Position numbers and translations under genes: made by a program | Shown: positions 15,967-49,367 of the stretch, in pieces | Numbering within the stretch: position 1 is the first letter of the stretch | Layout: every line of letters starts with the position of its first letter | Notes under the pieces: model-generated | Databases searched by the model: none | What the model was told of the DNA's origin: nothing | The model's input: the letters and a program-made list of their open reading frames with translations, nothing else | Assembly (NCBI RefSeq): GCF_964213995.1 | Contig: NW_027592528.1 | Span: 1-51,794 of the forward strand | Origin: Mustelus asterias | Taxonomy: Eukaryota | DNA length: 51,794 nt | Reading direction: 5' to 3'

Positions 15967-16553
15967 CTCCAAGGTGTGAGGTAGGGGAGCAAGGGAGGGA
16001 GATTCCAGATTTTTCCGCCCTATGTTAGGTATGTTCGAGGCTGAGACAGACAGATTTTTAACCGGGGAGGGAATCGAGGGTCACGGGGAATAAAGCGGGA
16101 GTTGAGGATTCTCACATCAGATCAGTCATTGAATGGGCAGGACAGACTTGATGGGCCAAATGGCCTACTTCTGCTGCTGGTCGTGTCGGGCGAACCCCCA
16201 GGAATGAACCTAGTGAACCTCCGAACGGTCTCCAATGCAAGCAGGTGCCTGAATACCACTGCCTTCCCGAAGGGCAATTAAGGATGGGCGTTAGACGCTG
16301 GAATGGCCAGCGGCGCTCACAGTCCCAATGCCCCGTTCTTAAGCATTGAGGCCGCGAGACTTCCTGTTCCAACGGGGCTGCGTTTACAGCTGAACTCCGG
16401 GGGAAGATTATGATGGAGACGCTGAATGAATGGAAGCCGTGCGCAGCTTATCGTTGACCCCCCCGTCAACCCAACCCAAGATGGCCGCCTGAAGGTTCCG
16501 CTGCTGCCTGCACCAGGAAAGACGATTCGAGTCGTGAGCTGGGTGTCGAGGTA

Positions 16554-16559
16554 TTTATT
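16554..16559 (-). terminator. Candidate poly(A) signal AATAAA for the Ig light-chain C exon
   Basis: First minus-strand AATAAA downstream of the C stop codon, with TGTA about 45 nt upstream on the minus strand. Confidence 0.5.
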
Positions 16560-18027
16560 CATGATGCACACAAAAGACACGCATGCGAGTAAAGGCACAT
16601 TGTTACAGGGCAGCCGCCCCAAGGAACTTTCCACCTGAGAACAACCGGCTGACGGAACAACTGACCGCGGTTCTGAAGTGAAGCGTCAGCTCCTGGTGGG
16701 ATGGGATGGTGGGGAAGGGGGGCGACATCCGGGGCGGAGGGAGGGGGCAGGGAAGGAGTGGGGGTGGGGGAACATCCTCGTGAACCTGCTCCTGGCTAAA
16801 CTTGCCCTCAACAGGTCCGGGAAGCGAGAGGAGGAGGGGGTCTGGGATTGTCCAACACGACTGTCTGCCCCCTCCACCATGGCTAAATTCACAGCCGGGT
16901 GTGGCTGGAGAGGGAGCGTGCGCTGTCCGCAGGCACCTCCCCTGAGGCTTTCCGTACTTCCCTGGGCACCGCCGGGACTGGAGTGCATTATTGACCCCTC
17001 TGCTCACATCTGGCTCCCAAACCGCGCCCCCTCCCTCGCCCCAGCACCTGGGGGCGGCTATCGGGACATCGCACCCTGGGGAGAGGGGGAGACAGACCCC
17101 CGAGAGGGGAGGCTGTGTAGATCCCCTGGGAGGTTACCCCAGAGCTCCGAGGGTTTAAATTGCCAAGAGGGGTCTCGCACACGCCAACGCGTTTCGAAGA
17201 TGCAGGGGTCGATTTGATGAAAGTTTTCAAAATATTAAGGGGGGAGAGTTAGGTGGGGGGGAACTGGGTGAAGGGGAGGGAGTCTCCAGAAAGAATAGGC
17301 TTCTCCGGAGTGGGAAACCAAGGCAGTGTGTGGCTGGAGATCGGGACAAAAAGCAAGAAAACGTCGGAAAAACCCCGAGCAGGTCAGCTGGGGAGAGAGA
17401 GAAACAGATCGCATCTCGAGTCCCCGTGACTCTTCCCCAGAGCGTTTGTGAAGGGCACAGAGAGGATGGGAGAGGGTTTGGGACTCCTGCCCCTCGAGGG
17501 GGCAATCGATGCTCGCTCGAGCCCTCTTGTTAATTTTCAATCTCAGGTCGACGGGCTCCGATCGCAGATCGGCCATCATCTGGTTGGGAATGGCGGGGCA
17601 GTCTCAAGGGGCTGAATGGTCTCCTCATGTTCCTGTGTTTGCGGGGGGGGAGGTGAGGGGTGGGGTGTGGGGAATTGATTCCTCACCCAGTGGTTGGGTT
17701 GGCGATCGATGTGTTCTGTTACCGTCGTACGGGCAGCGTGGTTGGAGGGCGAACCAGCCCATGCAAAGAACCTCCCAGGGATGTCCATTATCCACCCAAG
17801 GTCACCAGAAGGGTCAGAGGTTAAAGATCAGCAGCCGACAAATGAATAAAGCCAAACCCCCACCCTCCTTCTCGGGGTCAGTTGGGATTCTCTGTGTCGA
17901 TCGGTCAATGTTCTGCAAGGCGTTCCTCAGGGCATTGTTGGGGAAGGGGTGAGGGGTGTCTTTCCACTACTTAAAGCGAGGGAGAGACTTTGGTGAGGGG
18001 GGGGGGGTGGGGGTCTAAGGGTCAGGG

Positions 18028-18353
18028 TTAGCAGGCCGCGCTGCTCAGGCTCCTCTCGATGGGCTGGGCCTGTGTCTGGTGCCGGACCTGGCAGGAGTAA
18101 CGCCGCCCTCCCTGCCAGTTGCTGACGGGCAGGCGCAGATAGCTGGCCACCCGGTGGGTGCCCCCGGCCTCCAGCGTGACCGGGCTCAGGCTGGTGCCGG
18201 CGCTGACCTCGGCGCCATCCGCGCTCCACTGCACGTCCACGAAGCCCGGCTTAAAACCGCTCACCAGGCAGCTGAGGGTGGCCGTGTCAGAGCTGGACAG
18301 CTCCTCTGCCGAGGGGGGGAAGATGGAGACCGATGGCGGGAGAGCCGCATTGC
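18028..18353 (-). CDS. Immunoglobulin light-chain constant (C1-set) exon, intact; isotype uncertain (sigma/sigma-2/lambda-like)
   Basis: Pyrimidine tract plus CCAACAG acceptor ending at 18354, phase 1; (G)NAALPPSVSIFPPSAEELSSSDTATLSCLVSGFKPGFVDVQWSADG...SYLRLPVSNWQGGRRYSCQVRHQ...SSAAC* has the C1-set Cys, Trp and YxCxVxH motifs and a terminal Cys typical of light chains. Confidence 0.93.
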
Positions 18354-18387
18354 CTGTTGGGGGAGGAGAGGGAAAGGGGGGGACAGT

Positions 18388-18690
18388 TAGAGAACAATTG
18401 CACAACAAGATTAACCACAACATCCACAAACCCCCCCCTTCAACCTCCCCACATCTAAGATTCCTTATAATCCCCTCCCCAAAGCATTTGTGACCCCTTC
18501 CTAATTTCCCCTTGAGAAGGGGTGGGTTGCAGCAGGAGGGAAAAGAGGACAGCTAGAGAGCAATTGCACAAGAAGATTAACCATGTCATCCACAAACCCC
18601 CTCCTCCAATCCCCCCTTCTCAGATTCTCATATAATGCCCTCCCCAAAGCATTTGTAACCCACCCATAATTGCCCCTTGAGAAGGTGGTG
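18388..18690. repeat. Local tandem duplication of ~165 bp in the intron next to the C exon
   Basis: CAATTGCACAA.AAGATTAACCA...CCCCAAAGCATTTGT...CCCCTTGAGAAGG occurs at ~18395 and again at ~18561. Confidence 0.8.
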
Positions 18691-18889
18691 GGCAGCTTGA
18701 TCATGGTGGCAGGGATGTGGCATTTTATCTCAGGGTTGGGGGGGAGTATGATGGAATGGGAGGGGCTGTTTGAGTGGGGAGTGGGGCAGGTGCAATGTCG
18801 GGAGGCAAAGGGGCAATTAGGAAGTGGTGAATTTGGGCGGGGAGGACGTGGGTAGGGGTTAGGATGCTTTGGGTGAATGATGGGCTTTT

Positions 18890-19495
18890 TTTATCAATCG
18901 AGGGATTGAGTTTAGGAGTCCGGGGATAATGATGCAGCTATATAAGACCCTTGTCAGACCCCACTTGGAGTACTGTGCTCAGTTCTGGTTGCCTCATTAC
19001 AGGAAGGATGTGGAAAAGATTGAAAGGGTGCAGAGGAGATTTACAAGGATGTTGCCTGGATTGAGTGGCATGCCTTATGAGGATAGGCTGAGGGAGCTCA
19101 GTCTTTTCTCCTTGGAGAGATGTAGGATGAGAGGAGACCTAATAGAGGTATATGAGATGTTGAGAGGCATAGATCGGGTGGACTCTCAGAGGCTTTTTCC
19201 CAGGGTGGAAATGTCTGCTACGAGAGGACACAGGTTTAAGGTGCTGGGGGGTAGGTACAGGGGAGATGTTAGGGGGAAGTTTTTCACACAGAGGGTGGTG
19301 GGCGAGTGGAATCGGCTGCCGTCAGTGGTGGTGGAGGCAAACTCAATCGGGTCTTTTCAGAGGCTCCTGGATGAGTACATGGAGCGTAATAGGATGGAGG
19401 GTTATAGGTAGGTCTAGAAGGTAGGGATGTGTTCGGCACAACTTGTGGGGCCGAAGGGCCTGTTTCGTGCTGTAGTTTTTCTATGTTTCTATGTT
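18890..19495 (+). mobile_element. CR1 LINE 3' fragment
   Basis: ORF LYKTLVRPHLEYCAQFW...QRRFTRMLPG...RGDLIEVY...FFTQRVV; CR1 3' UTR. Confidence 0.92.
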
Positions 19496-19626
19496 TATTC
19501 CTTACAGAGTTTAATTTAGATAAATATGAGATGATGCATTTTGGTAGATTGAACCAGGGCAGGACTTACTCAGTTAATGGTAGGGCGTTGGGGAGAGTTA
19601 CAGAACAAAGAGATCTAGGGGATCTA

Positions 19627-20175
19627 GGGCGGCACGGTAGCGCAGTGGTTAGCACTGCTGCTTCACAGCTCCAGGGACCTGGGTTCGATTCCTGGCTTGG
19701 GTCACTGTCTGTGTGGAGTTTGCACATTCTCCTCGTGTCTGCGTGGGTTTCCTCCGGATGCTCCGGTTTCCTCCCACAGTCCAAAGATGTGCGGGTTAAG
19801 TTGATTGGCCATGCTAAAATTGCCCCTTAGTGTCCCGGGATGTGTAGGTTAGAGGGATTAGTGGGTAAATATGTAGGGATATGGGGGTAGGGCCTGGGTG
19901 GGATTGTGGTCGGTGCAGACTCGATGGGCCGAATGGCCTCTTTCTGTACTGTAGGGTTTCTATGATTTCTATGATAGAATCTCTACAGTGCAGAAGGAGA
20001 CCATTCGACCCATCGAGTCTGCACCGACCACAATCACACCCAGGCCCTGTTGCCATAACACCACACATTTACCCTTGCTAATCCCCCTGACACTAAGGGA
20101 CAATTTAACCTGGCCAATCCACCTAACCCGCACATCTTTGGACTGTGGGAGGAAACCGGAGCACCCGGAGGAAAC
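19627..20175. mobile_element. Full HE1-like SINE (+, 19627-19973) abutting a partial SINE in the opposite orientation (-, 19974-20175)
   Basis: Head GGGCGGCACGGTAGCGCAGTGGTTAGC, tail TTTCTATGATTTCTATG, followed immediately by the reverse-complement tail. Confidence 0.88.
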
Positions 20176-20189
20176 CATAAAAGAAATCT

Positions 20190-20815
20190 CAAAGTATAAA
20201 GAACAAAGAAAATTACAGCACAGGAACAGGCCCTTCGGCCCCTCCAAACCTGCACCGACCATGCTGCCCGACTGAACTAAAACCCCCTACCCATCTGGGG
20301 ACCATATCCCTCTATTCCCATCCTATTCATGTACTTGTCAAGACGCCGCTTAAAAGTCACTACCGTATCCGCTTCCACTACCTCCCCCGGCAACGAGTTC
20401 CAGGCACCCACTGCTCTCTGTGTAAAAATCTGCCTCGTACATCTCCTTTAAACCTTGCCCCTCACACCTTAAACCTGTGCCCCCTAGTAATTGACTCTTT
20501 CACCCTGGGAAAAAGCTTCTGACTATCCACTCTGTCCATGCCCCTCATAATCTTGTAGACTTCTACCAGGTCGCCCCCCTCAACCTCCGTCGCTCCAGTG
20601 AGAACAAACCAAGTTTCTCCAACCTCTCCTCATAGCTAAGGCCCTCCATACCAGGCAACATCCTGGTAAATCTTTTCTGTACCCTCTCCAAAGCCTCCAC
20701 ATCCTTCTGGTAGTGTGGCGACCAGAATTGAACACTATATTCCACGTGCGGCCCAACTAAGGTTCTGTAAAGCGTCAACATGACTTGCCAATTTTTAAAC
20801 TCAATACCCCGGCCT
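20190..20815 (-). mobile_element. CR1 LINE 3' fragment
   Basis: Minus-strand ORF GRGIEFK...LYRTLVGPHVEYSVQFWSPH. Confidence 0.9.
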
Positions 20816-20829
20816 GCGTACCTGTACAC

Positions 20830-21460
20830 TAATTGTCACATGTATTGGGATACAGTAAAAAGTATTGTTTCTTGCCTGCTATACAGACAAAACATACCAT
20901 TCATAGAGTACATAGGGGAGAAGGAGAGGGTGCAGAATGTTGTGTTACAGCTAGGGTGTAGAAAAAGATCAACTAATATCAGGTAGGTCCATTCAAAAGT
21001 CTGATGGCAGCAGAGAAGAAATTGTCCTTGAGTCAGTTGGTACGTGACCTCAGACTTTTGTATCTTTTTCCCGACAGAAGAAGGTGGAAGAGAGAATGTC
21101 CGGGGTGTGGGGGGTCCTTGATGATGCCGGCTGCTTTTCTGAGGCAGCGGGAGTGTGGACAGAGTCAATGGATGGGAGGCTGGTTTGAGTGATGGACTGG
21201 GCTTCGTTCACGACCCTTTGTAGTTCCTTGCGGTTTTGGGCAGAGCAGGAGCCACACCAAGCTGTGATACAACCAGAAAGAATGCTTTCTGTGGTGCATC
21301 CATAAAAGTTGGTGAGAGTCGTAGCGGGGGTACCAAATTTCCTTAAGTTCCTGAGAAAATAGAGGCGTTGGTGGGGCTTTCTTAACTATAGTGTCGGCGT
21401 GGGGGGGACCAAGACAGGTTGTTGCTGATCTGGACACCTAGAAAGTTGAAGTTCTTGACC
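20830..21460 (-). mobile_element. Rex1/Babar-like LINE 3' fragment
   Basis: Near-identical to 431-995. Confidence 0.82.
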
Positions 21461-21624
21461 ATCTAGTAGTAATGCCCTCCGCACTCTCTGGGCACCGCGG
21501 GGACTGGGGTGCCTTACCGACCCCCTCAATCATGTTTCGCTTCGCTGTCTTCAAGTTTCATTGTGTCATTTGTTGTTGGCTGACCCTTTAATTTGTCCCA
21601 CGGTTTTCGTTGGTTATTTCTTGG

Positions 21625-21920
21625 CGACACGGTGGTGCAGTGGGGTTAGCATTGCTGCCTCACAGCGCCAGGGACCGGGATTCAATTCCCGGCTTGGGTC
21701 ACTGTCTGAGCGGAGTCTGCACGTTCTCCCCGTGTCTTCGTGGGTTTCCTCCAGATGCTGGAGTTTCCTCCCACAGTCCAAAAGATGTACCGGTTAGGGT
21801 ACATTGGCCGTGCTAGCTTCTCCCTCAGTGTAACCTGAACAGGCGCTGGAGTGTGGCGACTGGGGGATTTTCACAGTAACTTCATTGCGGTGTTAGTGTA
21901 AGCTCACTAATAAACAAACT
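21625..21920 (+). mobile_element. V-SINE with HE1-like head and an alternative 3' tail (tail recurs at ~27300-27430)
   Basis: Same head and core, then CCCTCAGTGTA...CAGTAACTTCATTGCGGTGTTA...AATAAAC. Confidence 0.75.
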
Positions 21921-22554
21921 TTTAGTTGACCTCCCACACAACGGGGCATTGCTACTTGGCCAGATAACCCAGGGTAACGCTCAGGGGATAGAGGCTCAGA
22001 AATAATTTGGGAAGGCAAGTGGTGTGGATGGCACATAGAGTCCACACCAGAGTAGACAGGCTAGGTGAGTGGACAAAATACTCGGCAGATGGAATGTAAC
22101 ATTGGAAAATGTGAAGTTGTGCACTTTGGGAGGAAGAATAAAGGAGCTGAAAATAATTTAATTGGAGAAAGACTGCAGAAAGCACAGCGGGGATTTGGGG
22201 ATGCTTGTGTATAAACCCAAAGATGTGTGGGTTAGGTTGATTGGCCGTGCGAAATTGTCCCTTGGAGTCGGGGGATTAGTGGGATAATATGTGGGGTTGG
22301 GGGAGTGGGACCTGGGTGGGATTGTGATCGGCGCGGACTCAATGGGCCGAATGGCCTCTTTCTGCACTGTAGGGATTCTATGAAATCAAAAAAGGGCAGC
22401 ACGCAAGTTCAGCAGGTCATAGTTTATTTATTTTTATTCATTTTACAGGACATGGGTGTCGCTGGCTGGGCCCAGCATTTATTACCCATCCCTAGTTGCC
22501 CCTTGGAGGGCAGTTGAGAATCAACCACATTGCTGTGTGGCTCTGGAGTCACAT

Positions 22555-22840
22555 ATAGAATAGAATAGAATCTTACGGTACAGAAGGAGGCCATTTGGCC
22601 CATCGGGTCTGCACCAACCACAATCCAACTAACCTGCACATCTTTGGACACTAAGGGACAATTTAGCATGGCCAATCCACCTAACCCGCACATCTTTGGA
22701 CACTAAGGGGACAATTTAGCATGGCCAATCCACCTAACCCGCACATCTTTAGACACTCAGGGACAATTTAGCATGGCCAATCCACCTAACCTGCACATCT
22801 TTGGACACTAGGGGGCAATTTAGCATGGCCAATCCACTAT
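22555..22840 (-). repeat. SINE tail plus ~4 copies of the 52-bp SINE-internal repeat
   Basis: Unit CACATCTTTGGACACTAAGGGGCAATTTAGCATGGCCAATCCACCTAACCTG. Confidence 0.85.
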
Positions 22841-24625
22841 GCCAATTGGTGGCATAGTGGACATTGAAGAAGGTTATCTCCGATTGCAACGGGATCTTGA
22901 TCAATTGGGCCAGTGGGCTGACGAATGGCAGACGGAGTTTAATTTAGACAAATGCGAGGTGATGCATTTTGGTCGATTGAACCGGTGAAGGACTTACTCA
23001 GTTAATGGTCGGGCGTTGGGGAGAGTTACAGAACAAAGAGATCTAGGGGGTACAGGTTTATAGCTCCTTGAAAGTGGAGTCACAGGTGGACAGAGTGGTG
23101 AAGAAGGCATTCGGCATGCTTGGTTTCATTGGTCAGAACATTGAATACAGGAGTTGGGACATCTTGTTGAAGTTGTACAAGACATTGGTAAGGCCACAAA
23201 GAACAGTACAGCAGAGGAAACAGGCCCTTCGGCCCTCCAAGCCTGTGCCGCTCATTGGTCCAACTAGACCATTCGTTTGTATCCCTCCATTCCCAGGCTG
23301 CTCATGTGACTATCCAACATAGAACAGTACAGCACAGAACAGGCCCTTCGGCCCACGATGTTGTGCCGAGCTTTATCTGAAACCAAGATCAAGCTATCCC
23401 ACTCCCTATCATCCTGGTGTGCTCCATGTGCCTATCCAATAACCGCTGAAATGTTCCTAAAGTGTCTGACTCCACTATCACTGCAGGCAGTCCATTCCAC
23501 ACCCCAACCACTCTCTACGTAAAGAACCTAGAAAGATCCAGGTAAGTCTTAAACGATGTCAGCGTGTCTGCCTCCACCACCCTACTTGGCAGCGCATTCC
23601 AGGCCCCCACCACCCTCTGTGTAAAAAGCGTCCCTCTGATATCTGAGTTCTACTTCGCCCCTCTCACCTTGAGCCCGTGACCCCTCGTGATCGTCACCTC
23701 CGACCTGGGAAAAAGCTTCCCTGTTCACCCTATCTATAACCTTCATAATTTTGTACACCTCTATTAGATCTCCCCTCATTCTCCGTCTTTCCAAGGAGAA
23801 CAACCCCAGTCTACCCAATCTCTCCTCATAGCTAAGACCCTCCATACCAGGCAACATCCTGGTAAACCTTCTCTGCACTCTCTCTAAAGCCTCCACGTCC
23901 TTCTGGTAGTGTGGCGACCAGAACTGGACGCAGTACTCCAAATGTGGCCGAACCAGCGTTCTATACAACCGCAACATCAGACCCCAACTTTTATACTCTA
24001 TACCCTGTCCTATAAAGGACTTGGAATACTGTGTGCAGTTCTGGTCACCCTATTATAGAAAGGATATTATTAAACTAGAAAGAGTGCAGAAGAGATTTAC
24101 TAGGATTCTACCGGGACTTGATGGTTTGAGTTATAAGGAGAGGCTGGATAGAGTCAGAGAGGATTTAGATTTAGAGTCATAGAGATTTACAGCATGGAAA
24201 CATATTATTTTCATGGATAGACTGGCATTCTCTGGAGCATAGAAGGCTGAGGGGTGATCTTATAGAGGTCTATAAAATAATGAAGAGCGTAGATCAGCTA
24301 GATAGTCAATATTTTTCCCAAAGGTAGGGGAGTCTAAAACTAGAGGGCATAGGTTTAAGGTGAGAGGGGAGAGATACAAAAGGGTCCAGAGGGGCAATTC
24401 TTTCACACAGAGGGTGGTGAGTGTCTGGAACAAGCTGCCAGAGGTAGTAGTAGAGGTGGGTACAATTTTGTCTTTTAAAAAGTGTTTAAACAGTTACATG
24501 GGTAAGATTGTTAGAGAGAGATATGGGCCAAATGCAGGCAATTGGGATTAGCTTAGGGGTTTAAAAAACAGGGCAGCATGGACAAGTTGGGTCGAAGGGC
24601 CTGTTGCCATGCTGTAAACTTCTAT
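22840..24625. mobile_element. CR1 fragment (+) split by a minus-strand CR1 (~23198-24017), itself split by a third CR1 3' end (~23320-23530)
   Basis: LVRP|HLEYCVQFW is interrupted at ~23197 and resumes ~24018; minus-strand ORF 23582-23977. Confidence 0.85.
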
Positions 24626-24629
24626 GACG

Positions 24630-25265
24630 CTATAACCCCACCCAGGCCCTATCCCCATAACCCCATACATTTACCCTGGCTCGTCCCCCTGATACTAAGG
24701 GACAATTTAGCACGGCCAATCCACCTAACCTGCACATCTTTGGACACTAAGGCACAATTTAGCATGACCAATCCACCTAACCTGCACATCTTTGGACACT
24801 AAGGCACAATTTAGCATGGCCAATCCACCTAACCTGCACATCTTTGGACACTAAGGCACAATTTAGCATGACCAATCCACCTAACCCACATATCTTTGGA
24901 CATGAGGGGGCAATTTAGCACGGCCAATCCAACTAACCTGCACATCTTTGGAAATGAGGGGGCAATTTAGCATGGCCAATCCACCTAACCCGCACATCTT
25001 TGGACACTAAGGGACAATTTAGCATGGCCAATCCACCTAACCTGCACATCTTTGGACACTAAGGGGCAATTTTAGCATGGCCAATCCACCTAACCCGCAC
25101 ATCTTTGGACTGTGGGAGGAAACCGGAGCACCCAGAGGAGACACACGCAGACATGGGGAGAGAACGTGCAAACTCCACACAGATAGTGACCCAAGCCGGG
25201 AATCGAACCCGGGTCCCTGGCACTGTGAGGCAGCAGTGCCAACCACTGTGCCATCATGCTGCCCA
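24630..25265 (-). mobile_element. HE1-like SINE with ~8 internal tandem copies of the 52-mer
   Basis: SINE 3' body, then the array, then the SINE head in correct order. Confidence 0.88.
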
Positions 25266-25846
25266 TGAGAGAGACAGAGAGAGACACAGAGACTGAGAGA
25301 CACAGAGACTGAGAGAGATGGGAGAGACAGAAAAAAGACAGAGAGAGACAGAAAGAGGGGGAGAGACAAAGAGGCAGAGGAGGAGANNNNNNNNNNNNNN
25401 NNNNNNNNNNNNNNNNNNNNNNNNNNNNNNNNNNNNNNNNNNNNNNNNNNNNNNNNNNNNNNNNNNNNNNNNNNNNNNNNNNNNNNNNNNNNNNNNNNNN
25501 NNNNNNNNNNNNNNNNNNNNNNNNNNNNNNNNNNNNNNNNNNNNNNNNNNNNNNNNNNNNNNNNNNNNNNNNNNNNNNNNNNNNNNNNNNNNNNNNNAGA
25601 TGGTGAACCTGTGGAATTCTCTGCCACAGAAGGCCATGAGGGCCAAGTCACCGAATATATTTAAGAAAGAGATGGATTTTTAAATTCCAAAGGCACCACG
25701 GGGTATGGGGAGAGAGCGGGAGAGTGACAATGTAATACAGGATCAGCCATGATCATAATGAGTGGCAGAGCAGGTTCGAGGGGCTGAATGGCCTCCTCCT
25801 GTTTCTAGTTCCTATGCCACCGTCGCTCTGGGTCTGGGTTAAATTT

Positions 25847-25996
25847 GGAATGAAACTACGTGAGGTAACTTCCCTCTGTTGAAAATAGTCCGACTGTTTC
25901 CCTTCTGAACGGGACCCACACCCTCCCCCTCCCCCCGACAGAGTTGGTGAGGGGGAAGTGAAACCCACTCTCTCTACCCCCATCTGTGTTCATCTG
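25847..25996. promoter_or_regulatory. Candidate B-cell enhancer island: EICE GGAAGTGAAACC (25954-25965), Ets site, IRF-like site, two CATCTG E-boxes
   Basis: Motif cluster in a rare non-repeat stretch upstream of the Ig C exon; motif evidence only. Confidence 0.4.
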
Positions 25997-26959
25997 AATC
26001 NNNNNNNNNNNNNNNNNNNNNNNNNNNNNNNNNNNNNNNNNNNNNNNNNNNNNNNNNNNNNNNNNNNNNNNNNNNNNNNNNNNNNNNNNNNNNNNNNNNN
26101 NNNNNNNNNNNNNNNNNNNNNNNNNNNNNNNNNNNNNNNNNNNNNNNNNNNNNNNNNNNNNNNNNNNNNNNNNNNNNNNNNNNNNNNNNNNNNNNNNNNN
26201 NNNNNNNNNNNNNNNNNNNNNNNNNNNNNNNNNNNNNNNNNNNNNNNNNNNNNNNNNNNNNNNNNNNNNNNNNNNNNNNNNNNNNNNNNNNNNNNNNNNN
26301 NNNNNNNNNNNNNNNNNNNNNNNNNNNNNNNNNNNNNNNNNNNNNNNNNNNNNNNNNNNNNNNNNNNNNNNNNNNNNNNNNNNNNNNNNNNNNNNNNNNN
26401 NNNNNNNNNNNNNNNNNNNNNNNNNNNNNNNNNNNNNNNNNNNNNNNNNNNNNNNNNNNNNNNNNNNNNNNNNNNNNNNNNNNNNNNNNNNNNNNNNNNN
26501 NNNNNNNNNNNNNNNNNNNNNNNNNNNNNNNNNNNNNNNNNNNNNNNNNNNNNNNNNNNNNNNNNNNNNNNNNNNNNNNNNNNNNNNNNNNNNNNNNNNN
26601 NNNNNNNNNNNNNNNNNNNNNNNNNNNNNNNNNNNNNNNNNNNNNNNNNNNNNNNNNNNNNNNNNNNNNNNNNNNNNNNNNNNNNNNNNNNNNNNNNNNN
26701 NNNNNNNNNNNNNNNNNNNNNNNNNNNNNNNNNNNNNNNNNNNNNNNNNNNNNNNNNNNNNNNNNNNNNNNNNNNNNNNNNNNNNNNNNNNNNNNNNNNN
26801 NNNNNNNNNNNNNNNNNNNNNNNNNNNNNNNNNNNNNNNNNNNNNNNNNNNNNNNNNNNNNNNNNNNNNNNNNNNNNNNNNNNNNNNNNNNNNNNNNNNN
26901 NNNNNNNNNNNNNNNNNNNNNNNNNNNNNNNNNNNNNNNNNNNNNGTGATTTGAGTTTT

Positions 26960-27297
26960 AGATCAGCTAGATAGTCAATATTTTTTCCCAAAGGTAGGGG
27001 AGTCTAAAACTAGAGGGCATAGGTTTAAGGTGAGAGGGGAGAGATACAAAAGTGTCCAGAGGGGCAATTTTTTCACACAGAGGGTGGAGAGTGTCTGGAA
27101 CAAGCAGCCAGAGGTAGTAGTAGAGGCGGGTACAATTTTATCTTTTAAAAAGCATTTAGACAGTTACATGGGTACGATGGGTATAGAGGGATATGGGCCA
27201 AATGTGGGCAATTGGGACTAGCTTAATGGTTAAAAACTGGACGGCATGGGACTAGTTGGGCCAAAGGGCCAGTTTCCATGCTGTAAACCTCCGTGAC
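26960..27297 (+). mobile_element. CR1 LINE 3' end
   Basis: RGHRFKVRGERYK...FFTQRV..VWNK. Confidence 0.88.
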
Positions 27298-27594
27298 TCT
27301 ATTGGCCGTGCCAAATTCTCCCTCAGTGTACCCAAACAGGCACTGGAGTGTGGCCACTGGGGAATTTTCACAGTAACTTCCTTGTGGCATTAATGTAAGC
27401 TGACTTGTGACACTGATCAATAAACTTAAACTTAAATCTAAACTCAAGAACGTCCTTATTAGACTTAAAACCGGGTCTCCACGTTTGGCATCCCATGGCA
27501 GGAATGCTTCAGGCCTCCCCCTGACTTTGTGCCGAGCACAGATGTTTCTCAAAGGCCACAGAGTTGGTCGAATAAACCTACAGTCTTTGTGGTC

Positions 27595-36195: not shown

Positions 36196-36239
36196 TACCC
36201 TCTGTCTCCACGGCTCTCGAATCCTACCTTTCCTATCAA

Positions 36240-38585: not shown

Positions 38586-41500
38586 CGCGGTCGGTGGGTT
38601 GCCTCCCAGGAGCCAGAGTCCGTGATGTCTCGAATCGTGTTTTCGAAATTCTTAAGGGGGAGGGGGACCAGCACCAAGTTGTGGTTCACATAGGCACACA
38701 AGACATAGGTAGGAAAAGGGATGGGGATGTAAGGCAGGAATTCAGGGAGTTAGGGTGGAAACTTAGGGCTCAAACAAACAAAGTTGTTATATCTGGTTTG
38801 CTACCCGTGCCACGTGATAGTGATGGGAGGAATAGGGAGAGAGAGCAGTTGAACACGTGGTTACAGGAATGGTGCAGGAGGGAGGGTTTCAGATACCTGG
38901 ACAATTGGGGCTCTTTCTGGGGTAGGTGGGACCTCTACAAACAGAATGGTCTGCACCTGAACCAGAGGAGTACCAATATCTTGGGGGAGTAATCTGCTAA
39001 TGCTCTTCGGGAGGGTTTAAACTAATTCAGCAGGGGGGTGGGTACCTGAATTGTAGCTCCAATGTACAGGAGGTTGAGAGTAGTGAGGTCATGGATGAGG
39101 TTTCAGGGTCGCAGGAGTGTACCGGCAGGCAGGAAGGTGGTTTGAAGTGTGTATACTTCAACGCCAGGAGCATCCGGAATAAGGTGGGTGAACTTGCAGC
39201 ATGGGTTGGTACCTGGGATTTCAATGTTGTGGCCATCTCGGAGACATGGATAGAGCAGGGACAGGAATGGTTGTTGCAGGTTCCGGGGTTTAGATGTTTC
39301 AGTAAGATCAGGGAAGGTGGTAAAAGAGGGGGAGGTGTGGCATTGTTAGTCAAGGACAGTATTACGGTGGCAGAAAGGACATTTGATGAGGACTCGTCTA
39401 CTGAGGTAGTATGGGCTGAGGTTAGAAACAGGAAAGGTCACTCTGTTGGGAGTTTTTTATAGACCTCCAAAAAGTTCCAGAGATGTAGAGGAAAGGATTG
39501 CAAAGATGATTCTGGATAGGAGCGAAAGTAACAGGGTAGTTGTACTGGGGGACTTTAACTTTACAAATATTGACTGGAAAAGCTATAGTTTGAGTACTTT
39601 AGAGGGGTCAGTTTTTGTCCAGTGTCTGCAGGAAGGCTTCCTGACACAGTATGTAGATAGACCAACAAGAGGCGAGGCCACATTGGATTTGGTACTGGGT
39701 AATGAACCAGGCCAGGTGTTAGATTTGGAGGTAGGTGAGCACTTTGGTGACAGTGACCACAATTCGATTACGTTTACCTTAGCAATGGAAAGGGATAGGT
39801 ATGTACCTAAGGGCAAGAGTTATAGCTGGGGAAAGGAAATTATGATGCGATTAGGCGAGATTTAGGTGGCATAGGTTGGGGAAGGAAACTGCAGGGGATG
39901 GGCACAATTGTAATGTGGAGCTTGTTCAAGGAACAGCTACTAAGCGTCCTTGATAAATATGTACCTGTCAGGCAGGGAGGAAGCAGTCGTGTGAGGGAAT
40001 CGTGGTTTACTAAAGAGGTTGAATCTCCTGTGAAGAGGAAGAAGGAGACTTATGTTAAGATGAGACGTGAAGGCTCAGTTAGGGCGCTTGAGAGTTACAA
40101 GTTAGCCAGGAAGGACCTAAAGAAAGAGTTAAGAAGAGCCAGGAGGGGACATGAGAAGTCTTTGGCAGGTAGGATCAAGGAAAACCCTAAAGCTTTCTAT
40201 AGGTATGTCAGGAGTAAAAGAATGACTAGGGCAAGATTAGGGCCAGTCAAGGACAGGAGTGGGAAGTTGTGCGTGGAGTCTGAAGAGATAGGAGAGGCAC
40301 TAAATGAATATTTTTTGTCGGTATTCACACTGGAGAGGGACAGTGTTGTTGAGGGGAGTACTGAGATGCAGGCTGTTGGACTGGACGGGATTGAGGTTCA
40401 TAAGGAGGAGGTGTTAGTAATTCTGGAAAGGGTAAAAATAGATAAGTCCCCTGGGCCGGATGGGATTTATCCTAGGATTCTCTGGGAGGCGTGAGAAGAG
40501 ATTGCAGCCTTTGGCTTTGATCTTTGTGTCGTCATTGTCTACAGGAACAGTGCCAGAAGACTGGAGGATAGCAAATGTTGCCCCTTGTTCAAGAAGGGGA
40601 GTTAGGGACAACCCTGGTAATTATAGACCGGTGAGCCTTACGTCTGTTGTGGGCAAAGTTTTGGAAAGGATGATAAGAGAGAGGATTTATAATAATCTGG
40701 AAAGGAATAATTTGATTAGGGATAGTCAGCACGGTTTTGTGAAGGGTAGGTCGTGCCTCACAAACCTTATTGAATGGGATTGAGGGTGATTTAGTGGTTT
40801 GGATCAGGAATTGGCTAGCTGTAAGAAAACAGAGGGTGGTGGTTGATGGGAAATGTTCATCCTGGAGTTCAGTTACTAGTGGTGTACCGCAAGGATCTGT
40901 TTTGGGGCCACTGCTGTTTGTCATTTTTATTAATGACCTGGATGAGGGCATGGAAGGATGGATTAGTAAATTTGCGGATGACACTGAAGTTGGTGGAGTT
41001 GTAGACAGTGCGGAGGGAAGTGGCAGGTTACAGAGGGACATAGATAAGCTGCAGAGCTGGGCAGAGAGGTGGCAAATGGAGTTTAATGCAGACAAGTGTG
41101 AGGTGATTCACTTTGGAAGAAGTAACAGGAATACAGAGTACTGGGCTAATGGTAAGATACTTGGTAGTGTGGATGAACAGAGGGATCTGGGTGTTCATGT
41201 GCATAGATCCCTGAAAGTTGGCATCCAGGTTGATAGGGTTGTTAAGAAGGCGTACGGTATGTTAGATTTTATTGGTAGAGGGATTGAGTTTCGGAGCCAG
41301 GAGGTCATGCTGCAACTGTACAAAACTCTGGTGCGGCCGCATTTGGAGTATTATGTACAGTTCTGGTCGCCGTATTATAGGAAGGATGTGGAAGTGTTGG
41401 AAAGGGTGCAGAGGAGATTTACCAGGATGTTGCCTGGTATGGTGGGAAGGTCGTATGAGGAAAGGCTGAGGGACTTGAGGTTGTTTTCGTTAGAGAGAAG

Positions 41501-41855
41501 AAGGTTAAGAGGTGACTTAATAGAGGCATACAAGATGATCAGAGGATTAGATAGGGTGGATAGTGAGAGCCTTTTTCCTCGGATGGTGATGGCTAGCACG
41601 AGGGGACATAGCTTTAAATTGAGGGGTGATAGATATAGGACAGATGTTAGAGGTAGGTTCTTTACTCAGAGAGTAGTAAGGGTGTGGAATGCCCTGCCTG
41701 CAGCAGTAGTGGACTCGTCAACATTAAGAGCATTCAAATGGTTATTGGATAAACATATGGATGATATTGGAATAGTGTAGATTAGAGGGGCTTTAGATTG
41801 GTTTCACTGGTCGGCGCAACATCGAGGGCCGAAGGGCCTCTTATGTTCTATGTTC
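38586..41855 (+). mobile_element. CR1 LINE, ORF1-ORF2 pseudogenised by frameshifts, stops and an internal deletion in RT
   Basis: Successive ORFs 38594-38992, 39091-39462, 39446-39865, 39898-40494, 40460-40783 and 40770-41780 all align to the intact copy. Confidence 0.95.
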
Positions 41856-42380
41856 TAAGGGGCAATTTAGCATACCCAATCCACCTAACCTGTCCATTTT
41901 TTACATTAAAGGGCAATTTAGCATGGCTAATTCACCCAATTTACACATCTTTGGACACTAAGGGGCAATTTAGCATGGCCAATCCACCTAACCTGCACAT
42001 CTTTGGACATTAAGGGGCAATTTAGCATGGCCAATCCACCTAACCTGCACATCTTTGGACATTAAGGGGCAATTTAGCATGGCCAATCCACCTAACCTGC
42101 ACATCTTTGGACATTAAGGGGCAATTTAGCATGGCCAATCCACCCAATTTACATATCCTGGACACTAAAGGGCAATTCAGCATGGCCAATTCACCTAACC
42201 TGCACATCTGTGGACATGAAGGGCAATTTAGCATGGCCAATCCACCTAACCTGTACAACTTTGGACATTAAGGGGCAATTTAGCACGGCCAATCCACCTA
42301 ACCTGTACAACTTTGGACATTAAGGGGCAATTTACCATGGCCAATCCCCCTATCCTGCACATCTTTGGACACTAAAGGGC
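41856..42380 (-). repeat. 52-bp repeat array, ~10 copies
   Basis: Same unit. Confidence 0.9.
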
Positions 42381-42399
42381 AAATAAAGGGTACTGCATG

Positions 42400-43872
42400 G
42401 TAGGTTGTTGCATAAAGTTAAATCTCACAGGATCCACAGTGCGGTATCTAAATGGATACAAAATTGGCTTCTTGACACGGCACGGGCGGCACGGTAGCAC
42501 AGTGGTTAGCACTGCTGCTTCACAGCTCCAGGGACCCGGGTTCGATTCCCGGCTCGGGTCACTGTCTGTGTGGAGTTTGCACATTCTCCTCGTGTCTGCG
42601 TGGGTTTCCTCCGGGTGCTCCGGTTTCCTCCCACAGTCCAAAGATGTGCGAGTTAGGTTGATTGGCCAGGTTAAAAATTGCCCTTTGTGTCCTGGGATGC
42701 GTAGGTTAGTGGGATTAGTGGGTAAATATGTAGAGATATGGGGATAGGGCCTGGGTGGGATTGTGGTTGGTGCAGACTCGATGGGCCGAATGGCCTCTTT
42801 CTGTACTGTAGGATTTCTATGATTCTATGACAGAAGTCAGAGGGTGGTTGTAGAGGGTTGTTTTTCAAACTGGAGGCCTGTGACCAGTGGTGTGCCTCAA
42901 GGATCAGTGCTGGGCCCACTGTTATTTGTCATTTATATTAATGATTTGGATGAGAATATAGGGGGTATGGTTAGTAAGTTTGCAGATGACACCAAGATTG
43001 GTGACATAGTGGACAGTGAAGAAAGTTATCTCTGATTGCAACGGGATCTTGATCAATTGGGCCAGTGGGCTGACGAATGGCAGATGGAGTTTAATTTAGA
43101 CAAATGTGAGGTGATGCATTTTGGTAGATTGAACCAGGGCAGGACTTACTCAGTTAATGGTAGGGCGTTGGGGAGAGTTACAGAACAAAGAGATCTCGGG
43201 GTACAGGTTCATAGCTCCTTGAAAGTGGAGTCACAGGTGGACAGAGTGGTGAAGAAGGCATTCGGCATGCTTGGTTTCATCGGTCAGAACATTGAATACA
43301 GGAGTTGGGACGTCTTGTTGAAGTTGTACAAGACATTGGTAAGGCCACACTTGGAATACTGTGTGCAATTCTGATCACCCTATTATAGAAAGGACATTAT
43401 TAAACTTGAAAGAGCGCAGAAAAGATTTACTAGGATGCTACCGGGACTTGATGGATTGAGTTATAAGGAGAGGCTGGATAGACTGGGACTTTTTTCTCTG
43501 GAGTGTAGGAGGCTGAGGGGTGATCTTATAGAGGTCTATAAAATAATGAGGGGCACAGATCAGCTAGATAGTCAGTATCTTTTCCCAAAGGTAGGGGAGT
43601 CTAAAACTAGAGGGCATAGGTTTAAGGTGAGAGGGGAGAGATACAAAAGTGTCCAGAGGGGCAGTTTTTTCACACAGAGGGTGGTGAGTGTCTGGAACAA
43701 GCTGCCAGAGGCAGTAGTAGAGGCGGGTACAATTTCATCGTTTAAAAAGCATTTAGATAGTTACATGGGTACGATGGGTATAGAGGGATATGGGCCAAAT
43801 GCGGGCAATTGGGATTAGTTTAGGGGTTTTAAAAAATAAGGGCCTGTTTCCATGCTGTAATCCTCTATGACT
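42400..43872 (+). mobile_element. CR1 RT and 3' fragment with an HE1-like SINE inserted (~42484-42828)
   Basis: [10 protein letters not shown]...FADD with in-frame stops; full SINE head and tail inside. Confidence 0.92.
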
Positions 43873-43874
43873 CT

Positions 43875-45570
43875 AATTTACCAGGGCCAATGCACCTAAT
43901 CTGTACATCTTTGGACACTAAGGGGCAATTTAGCATGGCCAATGCACCTAATCTGTACATCTTTGGACACTAAGGGGCAATTTAGCATGGCCAATGCACC
44001 TAATCTGTACATCTTTGGACACTAAGGGGCAATTTAGCATGACCAATCCAACTAACCTACACATCTTTGGACACTAAGGGGCAATTTAGCATGGCCAATC
44101 CACCCAACCTATGAACCTTTTGACACTAAGGGGCAATTTAGCATGGCCAATGCACCTAATCTGTACATCTTTGGACACTAAGGGGCAATTTAGCATGGCC
44201 AATGCACCTAATCTGTACATCTTTGGACACTAAGGGGCAATTTAGCATGACCAATCCAACTAACCTACACATCTTTGGACACTAAGGGGCAATTTAGCAT
44301 GGCCAATCCACCCAACCTATGAACCTTTTGACACTAAGGGGCAATTTAGCATGGCCAATCCACCTAACCTGCACATCTTTGGACACTAAGGGACAATTTA
44401 GCATGGCCAATCCACCTAACCTACAAGTTTTGGACACGAAGGGGCAATTTAGCATGGCCAATCCATCTATGATTCTATGATGTTGTGATCTAACCTACAC
44501 AACGTTGGACACTAAGGGACAATTTAGCATGGCCAGTCCCCCTAACCTACACATCTTTGGACACTAAGGGACAATTTAGCATGGCCAGTCCCCCTAACCT
44601 GCACATCTTTGGACACTCAGGGACAATTTAGCATGGCCAATCCACCTAACCTGCACATCTTTGGACACTAAGGGACAATTTAGCATGGCCAATGCACCTA
44701 ATCTGTACATCTTTGGACACTGAGGGGCAATTTAGCATGACCAATCCAACTAACCTACACATCTTTGGACACTAAGGGGCAATTTAGCATGGCCAATCCA
44801 CCCAACCTATGAACCTTTTGACACTAAGGGGCAATTTAGCATGGCCAATCCACCTAACCTGCACATCTTTGGACATTAAAGGGCAATTTAGCATGGCCAA
44901 TCCACCTAACCTGCACATCTTTGGACACTAAGGGACAATTTAGCATGGCCAATCCACCTAACCTACAAGTTTTGGACACGAAGGGGCAATTTAGCATGGC
45001 CAATCCATCTATGATTCTATGATGTTGTGATCTAACCTACACAACGTTGGACACTAAGGGACAATTTAGCATGGCCAGTCCCCCTAACCTACACATCTTT
45101 GGACACTAAGGGACAATTTAGCATGGCCAGTCCCCCTAACCTGCACATCTTTGGACACTCAGGGACAATTTAGCATGGCCAATCCACCTAACCTGCACAT
45201 CTTTGGACACTAAGGGACAATTTAGCATGGCCAATCCACCTAACCTGCACATCTTTGGACACTAAGGGGCAATTTAGCATGGCAAATCCACCTAACCTGC
45301 AGATATTTGGACACGAAGGGATAATTTAGCATGGCCAATCCACCTAACCTGCACATCTTTGGCCACTAGGGGGCAATTCAGTGCGGCTAATCCAGCTAAC
45401 CTCTACATCTTTGTACATTAAGGGGCAATTTAGCACGGCCAATCCACCCAATTTACACATCTTTGGACATTAAGGGACAATTTAGCATGGCCAATCCACC
45501 TAACCTGCACATCTTTGGACACTAAGGGGCAATTTTGCATACCCAATCCACCTAACCTGTATATTTTTTA
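43875..45570 (-). repeat. 52-bp repeat array, ~32 copies, with a ~540-bp higher-order duplication
   Basis: Variant CCATCTATGATTCTATGATGTTGTGATC occurs at ~44463 and ~45005. Confidence 0.9.
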
Positions 45571-45577
45571 CATTTTA

Positions 45578-46465
45578 CATGGCTGGAATTGCGGATAGCG
45601 AAGAGCATTGTCAGGCAATACAGCAGGATATAGATAGGCTGGAAAATTGGGCGGAGAGGTGGCAGATGGAATTTAATCCGGATAAATGCGAAGTGATGCA
45701 TTTTGGAAGAAATAATGTAGGGAGGAGTTATACAATAAATGGCAGAGTCATCAGGAGTATAGAAACACAGAGGGACCTAGGTGTGCAAGTCCACAAATCC
45801 TTGAAGGTGGCAACACAGGTGGAGAAGGTGGTGAAGAAGGCATATGGTATGCTTGCCTTTATAGGACGGGGTATAGAGTATAAAAGCTGGAGTCTGATGA
45901 TGCAGCTGTATAGAACGCTGGTTAGGCCGCATTTGGAGTACTGCGTCCAGTTCTGGTCGCCGCACTACCAGAAGGACGTGGAGGCATTGGAGAGAGTGCA
46001 GAGAAGGTTTACCAGGATGTTGCCTGGTATGGAGGGTCTTAGCTATGAGGAGAGATTGGGTAGACTGGGATTGTTCTCCTTGGAAAGACGGAGAATGAGG
46101 GGAGATCTAATAGAGGTATACAAGATTATGAAGGGTATAGATAGGGTGAACAGTGGGAAGCTTTTTCCCAGGTCGGAGGTGACGATCACGAGGGGTCACG
46201 GGCTCAAGCTGAGAGGGGCGAAGTATAACTCAGACATCAGAGGGACGTTTTTTACACAGAGGGTGGTGGGGGCCTGGAATGCGCTGCCAAGTAGGGTGGT
46301 GGAGGCAGGCACGCTGACATCGTTTAAGACTTACCTGGATAGTCACATGAGCAGCCTGGGAATGGAGGGATACAAACGATTGGTCTAGTTGGACCAAGGA
46401 GCGGCACAGGCTTGGAGGGCCGAAGGGCCTGTTTCCTGTGCTGTACTGTTCTTTGTTCTTTGTTC
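45578..46465 (+). mobile_element. CR1 LINE 3' fragment with an open ORF2 C-terminus
   Basis: ORF 45579-46388, QQDIDRLENWAERWQMEFNPDKC... Confidence 0.93.
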
Positions 46466-46606
46466 TATTAAGGGGCAATTTAGCATGGCCAATTCACCCA
46501 ATTTATACATTCTTGGACATTAAGGGGCAATTTAGCATGGCCAATCCACCTAATCTGAACATCTTTGGACACTAAGGGGCAATTTAGCATGGCCAATCCA
46601 CCTAAC

Positions 46607-47880
46607 AGAGAACAGTACAGCACAGAACAGGCCCTTCGGCCCTCGATGTTGTGCCGAGCTTTATCTGAAACCAAGATCAAGCGATCCCACTCCCTATCAT
46701 CCTGGTGTGCTCCATGTGCCTATCCAATAACCGCTTAAATGTTCCTAAAGTGTCTGACTCCACTATCCCTGCAGGCAGTCCATTCCACACCCCAACCACT
46801 CTCTGAGTAAAGAACCTACCTCGGACATCCTTCCTATATCTCCCACCACGAACCCTATAGTTATGCCCCCTTGTAATAGCTCCATCCACCTGAGGAAATA
46901 GTCTTTGAACGTTCACTCTATCTATCCCCTTCATCATTTTAAAAACCTCTGTTAAGTCTCCCCTCAGCCTCCTCCGCTCCAGAGAGAACAGCCCTGGCTC
47001 CCTCAACCTTTCCTCATAAGACCTACCCTCCAAACCAGGCAGCATCCTGGTAAATCTCCTCTGCACTCTTTCCAGCGCTTCCACATCCTTCTTATAGTGA
47101 GGTGACCAGAACTGCACACAATATTCCAAATGTGGTCTCACCAAGGTCCTGTACAGTTGCAGCATAACCCCACGGCTCTTAAACTCCAACGCCATGTTAA
47201 TAAACGCTAACACACTATAGGCCTTCTTGGCTAAGATCAAGTGTAGTATGGTCGGCAGCCCATGGTCGGCCGCACTTGGTTGAGGTCATGAGGTTACGCT
47301 GAAGCTTCATATGTTTCATATGGAGCAATTTTTTAAAGCGGCATCTCGGCCTTTTGGCTAAGATGCAAATGAGCTCAAGTCTTGGAGGAGGAACCTCCCC
47401 TTTCTCCAATCAGCTTGGCTCATGTAGATCGGGCCCAGGACAGGGTGGTTTTGGTCGCTCGCCCTGTCTTGCCAGCCTGGATCTGAAATGTCTCAACTTG
47501 TTGAGACTCTGAATTGGATTTGATTTGATTGAATTGGAAAAGTAGGCCTTCTTCACAGCTCTATCCACTTGAGTGGCAACCTTTAGAGATCTGTGGATAT
47601 GAACCCCAAGATCTCTCTGTTCCTACACAGTCTTCAGAACCCTACCTTTGACCCTGTAATCCACATTTAAATTAGTCCTACCAAAATGAATCACCTCACA
47701 TTTATCAGGGTTAAACTCCATTTGCCATTTTTCAGCCCAGCTTTACATCCTATCTATGTCTCTTTGCAGCCTACAACAGCCCTCCACCTCATCCACTACT
47801 CCACCAATCTTGGTGTCATCAGCAAATTTACTGATCCACTCTTCAGCCCCCTCCTCTAAGTCATTAATAAAAATCACAAA
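46607..47880 (-). mobile_element. CR1 LINE 3' fragment interrupted by a U2-headed insertion
   Basis: Minus-strand ORF KKAYSVLAFI...LVRPHLEYCVQFW; continues past 47543 into the FADD region. Confidence 0.92.
47229..47542 (+). mobile_element. 314-bp insertion carrying two U2 snRNA 5' fragments, with an 11-bp target-site duplication
   Basis: TTGGCTAAGATCAAGTGTAGTAT (47227-47249) equals U2 nt 17-39; TCTCGGCCTTTTGGCTAAGAT (47344-47364) equals U2 nt 7-27; TAGGCCTTCTT at 47218-47228 and 47543-47553. Confidence 0.85.
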
Positions 47881-48134
47881 CACTAACCTGCGCATCTTTG
47901 GACACTAAGGGACAATTTAGAAACATAGAATCCCTACAGTACAGAAAGAGGCCATTCGGCCCATCGAGTCTGCACTGACCACAATTCCCTCACAGGCTCC
48001 GGGAATCCGTGGGAAAAGACTTCCGCCGTTCCACCGTTTAATCTGTTCTACGGGGGGTGGTGGGATGGGAGAGAGGGTGGTACGGACCTGGCGTGGGGTC
48101 CACCTGAGGGGGAGAAGTCGACTGGCCCACCGAC

Positions 48135-49155
48135 ACAGATTGTTTCCCTTTTAATTTATTTAAAGTGGATCTGGGTGTGAGTGTGTGGGGTCCACAATGA
48201 TTCTCCCTCCCTAACTGTGAGATTAATTCCCTTTGAATTTATTTTAAGGGGGTCTGTGTGTATGAGTGTGTGTGGGGTCCGTATATGTGTGGGGTCTGTA
48301 TGTGTGTGTGTGAGATCCGCAATTATTTTCCTTCCCTAACTGTAAGATTATTGCCCTTTTAATATATTTAAAGGGGGTCCCGTCTCGCTCGCGCATGTGT
48401 GGGATCTGCAGTGATACTCCCTCACTGACAGACTGTTGCCATTTTAATTTATTTAAAAAGGGTCCAGGTGTGCATGCGTGCGTATGTGTGTGTGTGGGGT
48501 CCACAGTGATTATCCCTCTCTCACTGACAGACTGTTGCCCTTTTAATTTATTCAAAAGGTATCTGGTTGTGTGTGTGTGTGTTATCCACAATGGTTCTCT
48601 CTCACTGACAGACTGTTGCCCTTTTAATTTATTTAAAGGGCATCTGTGTGTGTATGGGCGGGGGAGTGTGTGGGGTCCACAGTGATTCTCCCTCCGTGAC
48701 AGAGTGTTGCCCTTTTAATTTATTTAAAAGGGGTCCGGGGTGTGTGTGTGTGTGGGGTCCACAGTGATTCTCCCTCCGTGACAGGGTGTTGCCCTTTTAA
48801 TTTATTTAAAAGGGGTCCGGGGTGTGTGTGTGTGTGTGTGGGGTCCGCAGTGATTCTCTCTCCCTCGTTGGCAGAATGTTGCCCTCTTAACTTATTTGAA
48901 TGGGGCCCGGATAAGTGTCTGTGTGGGGGTCGCAGCCATTCTCCCTCCCGTGCTGACAGATTGTTGCCCTTTTAATTTATTTAAAGGGGGCCCATGGCGT
49001 GTGTGAGTGTGTGGGGTCCACAATGATTCTCCCTAACTGTGAGATTAATTCCCTTTGAATTTATTTAAAGGGGGTCCGTGTGTATGAGTGTGTGTGCGGT
49101 CCGTATGTGTGTGTGTCTGTGGGGTCCACCGAGAGTCGCCCTCCCTCACTGACGG
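48135..49155 (+). repeat. Variable ~65-120 bp minisatellite (TTGCCCTTTTAATTTATTTAAAGGGG...(TG)n GGGGTCCACAGTGATTCTCCCTC...), ~12 copies
   Basis: Directly visible. Confidence 0.9.
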
Positions 49156-49174
49156 CCCCCTAATTCTTTTCCAG

Positions 49175-49240
49175 GTGTCCGGGCCGACCCTCGGGTCACT
49201 CAGGAGGCGTTGGCCGGGCCGGTGAAGCCGACCCGCCAAT
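49175..49240 (+). pseudogene. Possible Ig V-exon 5' remnant (GVRA-DPRVTQE...VKPTR, then stop)
   Basis: Branch-like CCCTAAT plus TTCTTTTCCAG acceptor, phase 1; VTQ motif; GTG AAG CCG ACC CGC is two substitutions from VKLTC; premature TGA. Confidence 0.4.
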
Positions 49241-49315
49241 GAATGCGTCAACCTGCATGAAAAACAAATGGGGGCCTGACGCTTTGGCGTAGGGTCTTTT
49301 CCACCCTCACCGGCC

Positions 49316-49367
49316 CGCTGTGGCTATGGCGCCGGCAACGGAGCTCCATTGGACGTCAAAAGTGAGT
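49316..49367 (+). pseudogene. Degenerate Ig light-chain-type J segment with heptamer-like CGCTGTG and splice donor
   Basis: 39 nt (49323-49361) between CGCTGTG and a phase-1 GTGAGT donor encode YGAGNGAPLDVK, compared with the consensus xxFGxGTxLxVK; nonamer is poor. Confidence 0.55.

What the first reader, a model, noticed from the sequence alone, without database searches (positions are those of the whole stretch)
16530..49367. Apparently orphan, intact light-chain C exon with no V/J on its own strand for >30 kb
Seen: the C exon has a clean acceptor, open frame and terminal Cys, yet I found no FGxG J segment or V exon on the minus strand up to the window end. The only V/J-like sequence points the other way. 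Known: shark IgL genes are V-J-C clusters (some germline-joined) in a single orientation. Inference: V/J may be hidden in a gap (25387-25598, 26001-26945, 50246-50567) or lie beyond the window. Alternatively this could be a non-rearranging, C-only chain resembling a surrogate light chain, or an atypical isotype.
Basis: partly seen in the sequence, partly recalled or inferred. Interest (0 to 1): 0.7.

Follow-up and report, generated by a model that had tools for sequence, protein, structure and literature searches.

The report
Divergent shark sigma-2 light-chain gene
This is the intact constant exon of a divergent shark antibody light chain that other sharks encode as a full-length gene; here only a broken, backwards copy of its variable part lies beside it, and the working variable part is likely missing from the assembly rather than from the animal.

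Summary
The C exon (18353-18028, minus) is intact and single-copy; its best paralogues in the assembly are 45% or less. Full L-V-J-C orthologues exist in catsharks and horn shark (75-79% in C). Their J has Thr where FGxG has Phe, so a motif search misses it. The plus-strand element is this chain's own V-J, broken: 17 codons of V, no leader found, a J heptamer without a 23-spacer nonamer, and an in-frame J with a donor. It is the assembly's only J match, and no intact V was found. The window is a whole unplaced contig. Depth in two public runs fits one contig covering exactly 49175-49225, acceptor to breakpoint (1 of 3136 intervals). I read this as an intact, spliced V that the assembly lacks. 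Trees place the chain as a third sigma-2 branch, about 45% identical to classic type I/NS5. I found it undescribed as such, though probably listed in one supplementary table. The scan had not found this lineage before; it had a similar V-less kappa case in this genome (e1-9131594).

The parts
18028..18353 (-). Intact C1-set constant exon of a divergent sigma-2 light chain; ends at Cys, two codons before the orthologues' end
   Evidence: 75-79% to catshark and horn shark orthologues; 45% or less to any other scored match in G000
16554..18027 (-). Presumed 3' UTR of about 1.5 kb ending at AATAAA (16559-16554)
49175..49225 (+). Stub of the orthologous V exon: acceptor AG at 49173-49174, 17 codons, then non-V sequence and a stop at 49240-49242
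   Evidence: exact in contigs of runs X3 and X4
49293..49322 (+). Defective J recombination signal: heptamer 6/7 at 49316-49322; nonamer match 1/9 at spacer 23, 4/9 at 12, 5/9 at 13, 6/9 at 14-15
   Evidence: kappa J signals in the same genome score 6/7 and 9/9 at spacer 23
49323..49361 (+). Orthologous J segment (39 nt, YGAGNGAPLDVK) with GTGAGT donor at 49362-49367; phase matches the C acceptor; Ala at the position of the FGxG Phe
   Evidence: only match to the lineage's J pattern in G000
48126..49153 (+). Minisatellite (unit about 82 bp) in the presumed leader-V intron; no second copy found in the assembly
   Evidence: table 8, record 25; one contig in one run
18354..47985 (.). About 30 kb of mostly repeats between C and the V-J block, with a 956-codon LINE ORF at 32104-34974 and two unreadable N runs

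Best explanation
The exon is the constant exon of a divergent sigma-2 antibody light chain that is likely made in the ordinary way (V joined to J, spliced to C, disulfide-linked to a heavy chain through the terminal Cys), and the plus-strand element at 49.2 kb is a broken, inverted copy of its own V-J. Shown: intact C, orthology, the V stub, the J with its donor, the defective J signal, and no intact V among the assembly's scored matches. Inferred: a working leader-V-J unit exists in the species, on unassembled DNA past the contig end, on the other haplotype, or hidden by a misjoin near 47986. RAG joining is inferred from the 12-RSS-like tail of catshark germline V and from junction variants among the RefSeq isoforms. 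Heavy-chain pairing was not tested.
For: Orthologue models with L-V-J-C in three shark species. The window's C groups with them at SH-aLRT 100 (quick tree). V stub and J beat shuffles. In runs X1 and X2, depth over the V stub fits one contig on exactly 49175-49225, 1 of 3136 intervals; that starts at the acceptor and ends at the breakpoint. In X3 and X4 (one sample, read as genomic DNA) contigs break at 49225, with leftover depth fitting a second path of about 30 bp at depth 2-2.7. All 8 of 8 other light-chain clusters fetched from G000 have V and C on one strand within 1.8-8.2 kb. The contig is unplaced and ends in a minisatellite. The likely catshark gene spans 31.7 kb on one strand (PMC12227049 Table S1; matching it to P0002 is my inference).
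Against: The intact V was never read as sequence in this organism; it is deduced from binned depth, and X1 and X2 are not on record as RNA. Neither run put depth on the J. X3 and X4 showed no second J copy, which a second intact unit should give unless it is diverged, filtered or thinly covered. The second path is only about a third as deep as the deleted one. No read links V-J to C. The orthologues are predicted gene models. X3 and X4 may be the assembly's own sample.
Confidence: 0.68

Rival explanations
1. The locus is dying in this species or haplotype: an inversion and deletion removed the leader and most of V, and C survives for now with only sterile transcripts.
For: The deletion junction is in contigs of X3 and X4. 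No leader found. J signal defective. J differs from both orthologues at two Thr positions. C ends two codons early. One J and no V found in the assembly.
Against: The C frame is clean, with a branch (0.15) not far above the orthologues'. The V exon appears spliced and continuing in organism B.
Confidence: 0.14
2. The inverted J is the working one: an intact V past the contig end, facing C, joins it by inversion, which would turn J towards C.
For: The geometry allows it. J has an open frame, a GTGAGT donor and the right phase. It is the only J seen in the assembly and in X3/X4 contigs.
Against: No nonamer at spacer 23 (1/9), while catshark V reads as a 12-RSS. No depth on this J in X1 or X2. 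Catshark and horn shark models are single-strand genes. Shark segments tend to lie in one orientation (PMC5192425 passage).
Confidence: 0.1
3. Split, non-rearranging chain as in sterlet IgL4: V and (J-)C are transcribed separately with their own leaders and might act like a surrogate light chain.
For: A precedent exists in a sigma-like locus whose J lacks a functional RSS (PMC5985310 section IgL4). X2 holds C/UTR words and a V piece, with no J depth.
Against: No leader found on C's strand (control sensitivity 4 of 8). Orthologue models are joined V-J-C with varying junctions.
Confidence: 0.08

Closest known systems
Cartilaginous-fish IgL sigma-2 (sigma-cart, type I, nurse shark NS5)
   Same: Highest mean identity among the groups compared (V 44%, C 45%). 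Seven V residues shared by all sigma-2 groups. One clade with it at 90/80. V 12-RSS as in the G000 type I locus L033.
   Different: Lies outside the type I clade of sharks and rays (99/98). Both kinds occur in G000. C is about as far from type I (45%) as type I is from lambda/kappa (43%). J has Thr or Ala at the Phe position.
Bony-vertebrate sigma-2 (bichir, gar, coelacanth, turtles; Guselnikov 2018, PMC5985310)
   Same: Similar FR2 and CDR2 region. Sister group in the V tree at 99/94. Gar sigma-2 flanks IgH, and the likely catshark orthologue lies on the IgH/TCR chromosome.
   Different: Sister grouping is weak with V+C (76/69), the alternative is not rejected (p-AU 0.33), and the tool warns of long-branch attraction. 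Gar, coelacanth and turtle genes are germline-joined, and all 14 bony rows have Trp at that J position; the shark lineage is split, with Thr.
Catshark LOC119952034 ('IgLsigma') and great white LOC121270612 ('IgL sigmaprime') in Table S1 of Flajnik 2025 (PMC12227049)
   Same: The catshark entry has the same NCBI description as P0002 and coordinates that fit P0002's 133.8-Mb chromosome, so it is probably the orthologue (inferred).
   Different: Listed only, with no separate lineage in the passages I read. The great white entry could be classic type I; not tested.
Sterlet IgL4 (split V and J-C) and mammalian lambda5/VpreB
   Same: A light-chain C exon without a usable V in line.
   Different: No leader found for C here, and the orthologue models are full chains.

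Membership tests
Ig light chain (any isotype) | Single C1-set exon with both Cys, Trp and a terminal Cys | tested here: met
Ig light chain (any isotype) | Leader, V and J upstream of C in the same orientation | tested here: not met
   Not in the readable window or among the assembly's scored matches; met in orthologue gene models
Ig light chain (any isotype) | J with F/W-G-x-G motif | tested here: not met
   Thr in 5 of 5 orthologue rows and Ala in the window; aromatic in 44 of 45 other rows with a J; 4 of 54 rows had no J
Ig light chain (any isotype) | Spliced V-J-C transcript | tested here: inconclusive
Ig light chain (any isotype) | Disulfide pairing with a heavy chain | not tested
   No complex prediction was sent; needs protein work
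sigma-2 isotype (broad) | V and C group with sigma-2 rather than kappa, lambda or sigma | tested here: met
   90/80 in the V+C tree, just short of starred; 7 shared V residues. No lambda-2 row was included; kappa, lambda and sigma labels are mine, by recall
sigma-2 isotype (broad) | V 12-RSS and J 23-RSS when split | tested here: inconclusive
   V 12-RSS inferred from the translated tail of P0038 and P0049; window J has no 23-spacer nonamer
Classic type I / NS5 sigma-2 | Falls inside the shark-and-ray type I clade | tested here: not met
   Outside it in the V+C and C trees; the V-only trees leave type I unresolved and draw the lineage among it
Surrogate or split light chain (lambda5, sterlet IgL4) | Own leader exon spliced to (J-)C without V | tested here: not met
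   0 leader candidates upstream; control 4 of 8; N runs unreadable

The most novel reading that the evidence does not exclude
Sharks have a fifth, overlooked light-chain isotype: a single-C, rearranging chain that is the true counterpart of bony-vertebrate sigma-2, linked to the IgH/TCR complex. Its J has lost the Phe that normally packs against VH, so it would pair with heavy chains in a non-standard way or with a special partner. No member turned up for nurse-shark relatives or rays in my searches, which would explain why it was missed.
Probability: 0.3. Interest if true: 0.7.

Novelty: new variant of a known kind. Interest (0 to 1): 0.45.

Why it matters
The V-less surrogate-chain reading would have been striking but is unlikely. 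What remains is a deeply diverged sigma-2 branch, kept in horn shark, catsharks and this shark, with a conserved non-aromatic residue at the J position that (by established knowledge, recalled) sits in the VH-VL interface. It changes how shark light-chain isotypes are counted and which shark gene should be compared with bony-vertebrate sigma-2. It also shows that FGxG searches miss this J, and that this assembly probably lacks the working gene.

Tried and rejected
No listed run is on record as RNA; zero depth on J in X1 and X2 is a part without cover and proves nothing alone. Two metagenome scans for germline loci found nothing. The representative search returned multi-domain Ig proteins, none above 46% among the best 150. 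The atlas could not take the neighbour exon, and PDB gave 0 hits for it. Rfam: 0 hits in the window. Searches with both contig ends found no overlapping contig. No second copy of the intron minisatellite or of the V-J block in G000. The careful C tree did not finish; the quick tree is reported. Shared-residue counts do not favour the bony-vertebrate link (V 2 vs 1 vs 2; C 1 vs 2 vs 1). I rejected lambda as the isotype despite the C13 lambda exons being the nearest in-genome C hits, because trees separate them. Inverted repeat pairs flank the V-J block but such repeats are everywhere, so they are no evidence of an inversion. The elephant shark supplement gave nothing on IgL. No fold or complex was predicted: an Ig pair would pass by likeness.

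Full report
Observation. The exon at 18353-18028 (minus) has a clean acceptor, 107 open codons, the C1-set Cys, Trp and Cys, a terminal Cys and a polyadenylation signal 1.5 kb on. In the 33,441 bases upstream no V or J was found on its strand; 1,478 of these bases read N and could not be examined. The window is the whole of contig C2496 in a 3.68-Gb assembly, and among 150 scored of 659 candidates no other match exceeds 45% identity.

Identity. A search among longer proteins returned 2 clusters of 715 candidates: catshark (78%) and horn shark (75%), both full leader-V-J-C models. The catshark cluster has 5 members from two species, with different V regions and junctions. Their J reads (Y/V)TGNGTPLDVK: Thr stands where 44 of 45 other rows with a J have Phe, Tyr or Trp. 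An FGxG search cannot find it. A germline catshark V model and an unnamed JGI protein continue into residues that read as a heptamer, 12-base spacer and nonamer, like the kappa V of this genome; this is inferred from translation.

The opposite-strand element. With the orthologues as probes, only two places beat shuffles, both on the plus strand: 49175-49225, the first 17 codons of V behind an intact acceptor, and 49323-49361, the J with a GTGAGT donor in the phase that C needs. The rest of V and its signal are absent. The J heptamer is 6/7, but there is no nonamer at spacer 23 (1/9); the best match is 6/9 at spacer 14-15. No leader was found on either strand (the scan finds 4 of 8 control leaders). 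In the assembly the J pattern matches once, the block has no second copy, and the best V match is 46% or less among 150 scored of 1217. The 8 other light-chain clusters that I fetched have V and C on one strand within 8.2 kb.

Public runs. Five runs hold C and UTR words; none is on record as RNA. I laid 4 of the 5 on 47900-49560. X3 and X4 (one sample, read as genomic DNA) match the window exactly across the V stub and J, so the deletion is real DNA, though this may be the assembly's own sample. Their contigs break at 49225, and leftover depth fits a second path of about 30 bp at depth 2-2.7. X1 (another organism) and X2 (the same organism as X3 and X4) cover 12 and 13 of 30 bins. Their depth over the stub fits a single contig on 49175-49225, 1 of 3136 intervals. 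A contig that starts at the acceptor and leaves at the breakpoint is what a spliced, intact V would give. This is arithmetic on binned depth; the contigs were not shown. Against it: no depth on J in X1 or X2, and no second J in X3 or X4. One X4 contig departs from the window left of 47986, a weak hint of another haplotype or a misjoin.

Lineage. With V+C (28 rows chosen from the larger set) the chain's group (100/100), bony-vertebrate sigma-2 (99/98) and classic shark and ray type I (99/98) form one clade at 90/80. The V tree joins it to the bony group at 99/94 with a long-branch warning. V+C gives only 76/69, and the alternative is not rejected (p-AU 0.33). The window's C sits in the group at SH-aLRT 100 in a quick tree. 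Mean identity to type I is 44% (V) and 45% (C); type I to lambda/kappa is 36% and 43%. G000 also holds a type I locus (L033), so the two are paralogues. Only 'type I' (P0034) is a source's label; the kappa, lambda, sigma and bony sigma-2 labels are mine, from recall, the trees and the species table of PMC5985310.

Mechanism. Most likely an ordinary rearranging light chain whose working leader-V-J is absent from this assembly, beside a dead inverted copy (0.68). Rivals: a dying locus (0.14), inversional joining to this J (0.10), and a split chain like sterlet IgL4 (0.08). The effect of Thr at the interface is untested.

Literature. Seven searches found no description of a second shark sigma-2 lineage. 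Seen: PMC5985310 abstract, two sections and passages; PMC12227049 abstract, one section, passages and all of Table S1; passages of PMC4279169, PMC5192425 and PMC13320880; a supplement search of PMC3964593. PMC12227049, PMC4279169 and PMC5192425 count four shark isotypes. PMC13320880 mentions unrecognised fish light-chain subtypes without naming them in the passages seen; its supplements were not read. Table S1 lists a 31.7-kb catshark 'IgLsigma' gene that is probably the orthologue. Four relevant papers were not held (PMC7708420, PMC7094790, PMC4874517, PMC12010099) and may describe it.

Verdict. New variant of a known kind, interest 0.45.

Noticed in passing
window 1140-1223 (+) and the sequence after it: Terminal exon encoding an acidic 27-residue tail, followed by a long UTR-like stretch. 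By recall it resembles the end of hnRNP C, which in humans lies near PSMB5 and TCR alpha/delta; this would place the contig in the antigen-receptor complex. Not confirmed.
   Followed up: partly
window 32104-34974 (+): 956-codon open LINE ORF with endonuclease and reverse transcriptase domains.
   Followed up: partly
window 47225-47370 (+): Two short stretches that by recall resemble the 5' end of U2 snRNA, beside LINE pieces; Rfam found nothing at gathering score.
   Followed up: partly
window 2574-13914: 11 kb of pyrimidine-rich minisatellites (18- and 22-base units) between the neighbour gene and the C exon's 3' end.
   Followed up: no
L033 (G000:C23:1595000-1600500): Classic type I sigma-2 cluster with a good V 12-RSS but a degenerate J heptamer; possibly a pseudogene.
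   Followed up: partly
L032 (G000:C75:17329000-17338900): A germline VJ-like exon and a light-chain-like C1 exon ending in Cys-Gly-Leu, on a long branch and of no tested isotype.
   Followed up: no
L040 (G000:C13:61410000-61418000): A split lambda-type cluster: V with a 23-RSS and a 12-RSS in J position, although the reviews read say shark lambda genes are all germline-joined; it could be lambda-2-like.
   Followed up: no
P0066: A caecilian protein groups with bony-vertebrate sigma-2; the isotype table in PMC5985310 lists no amphibian sigma-2.
   Followed up: no
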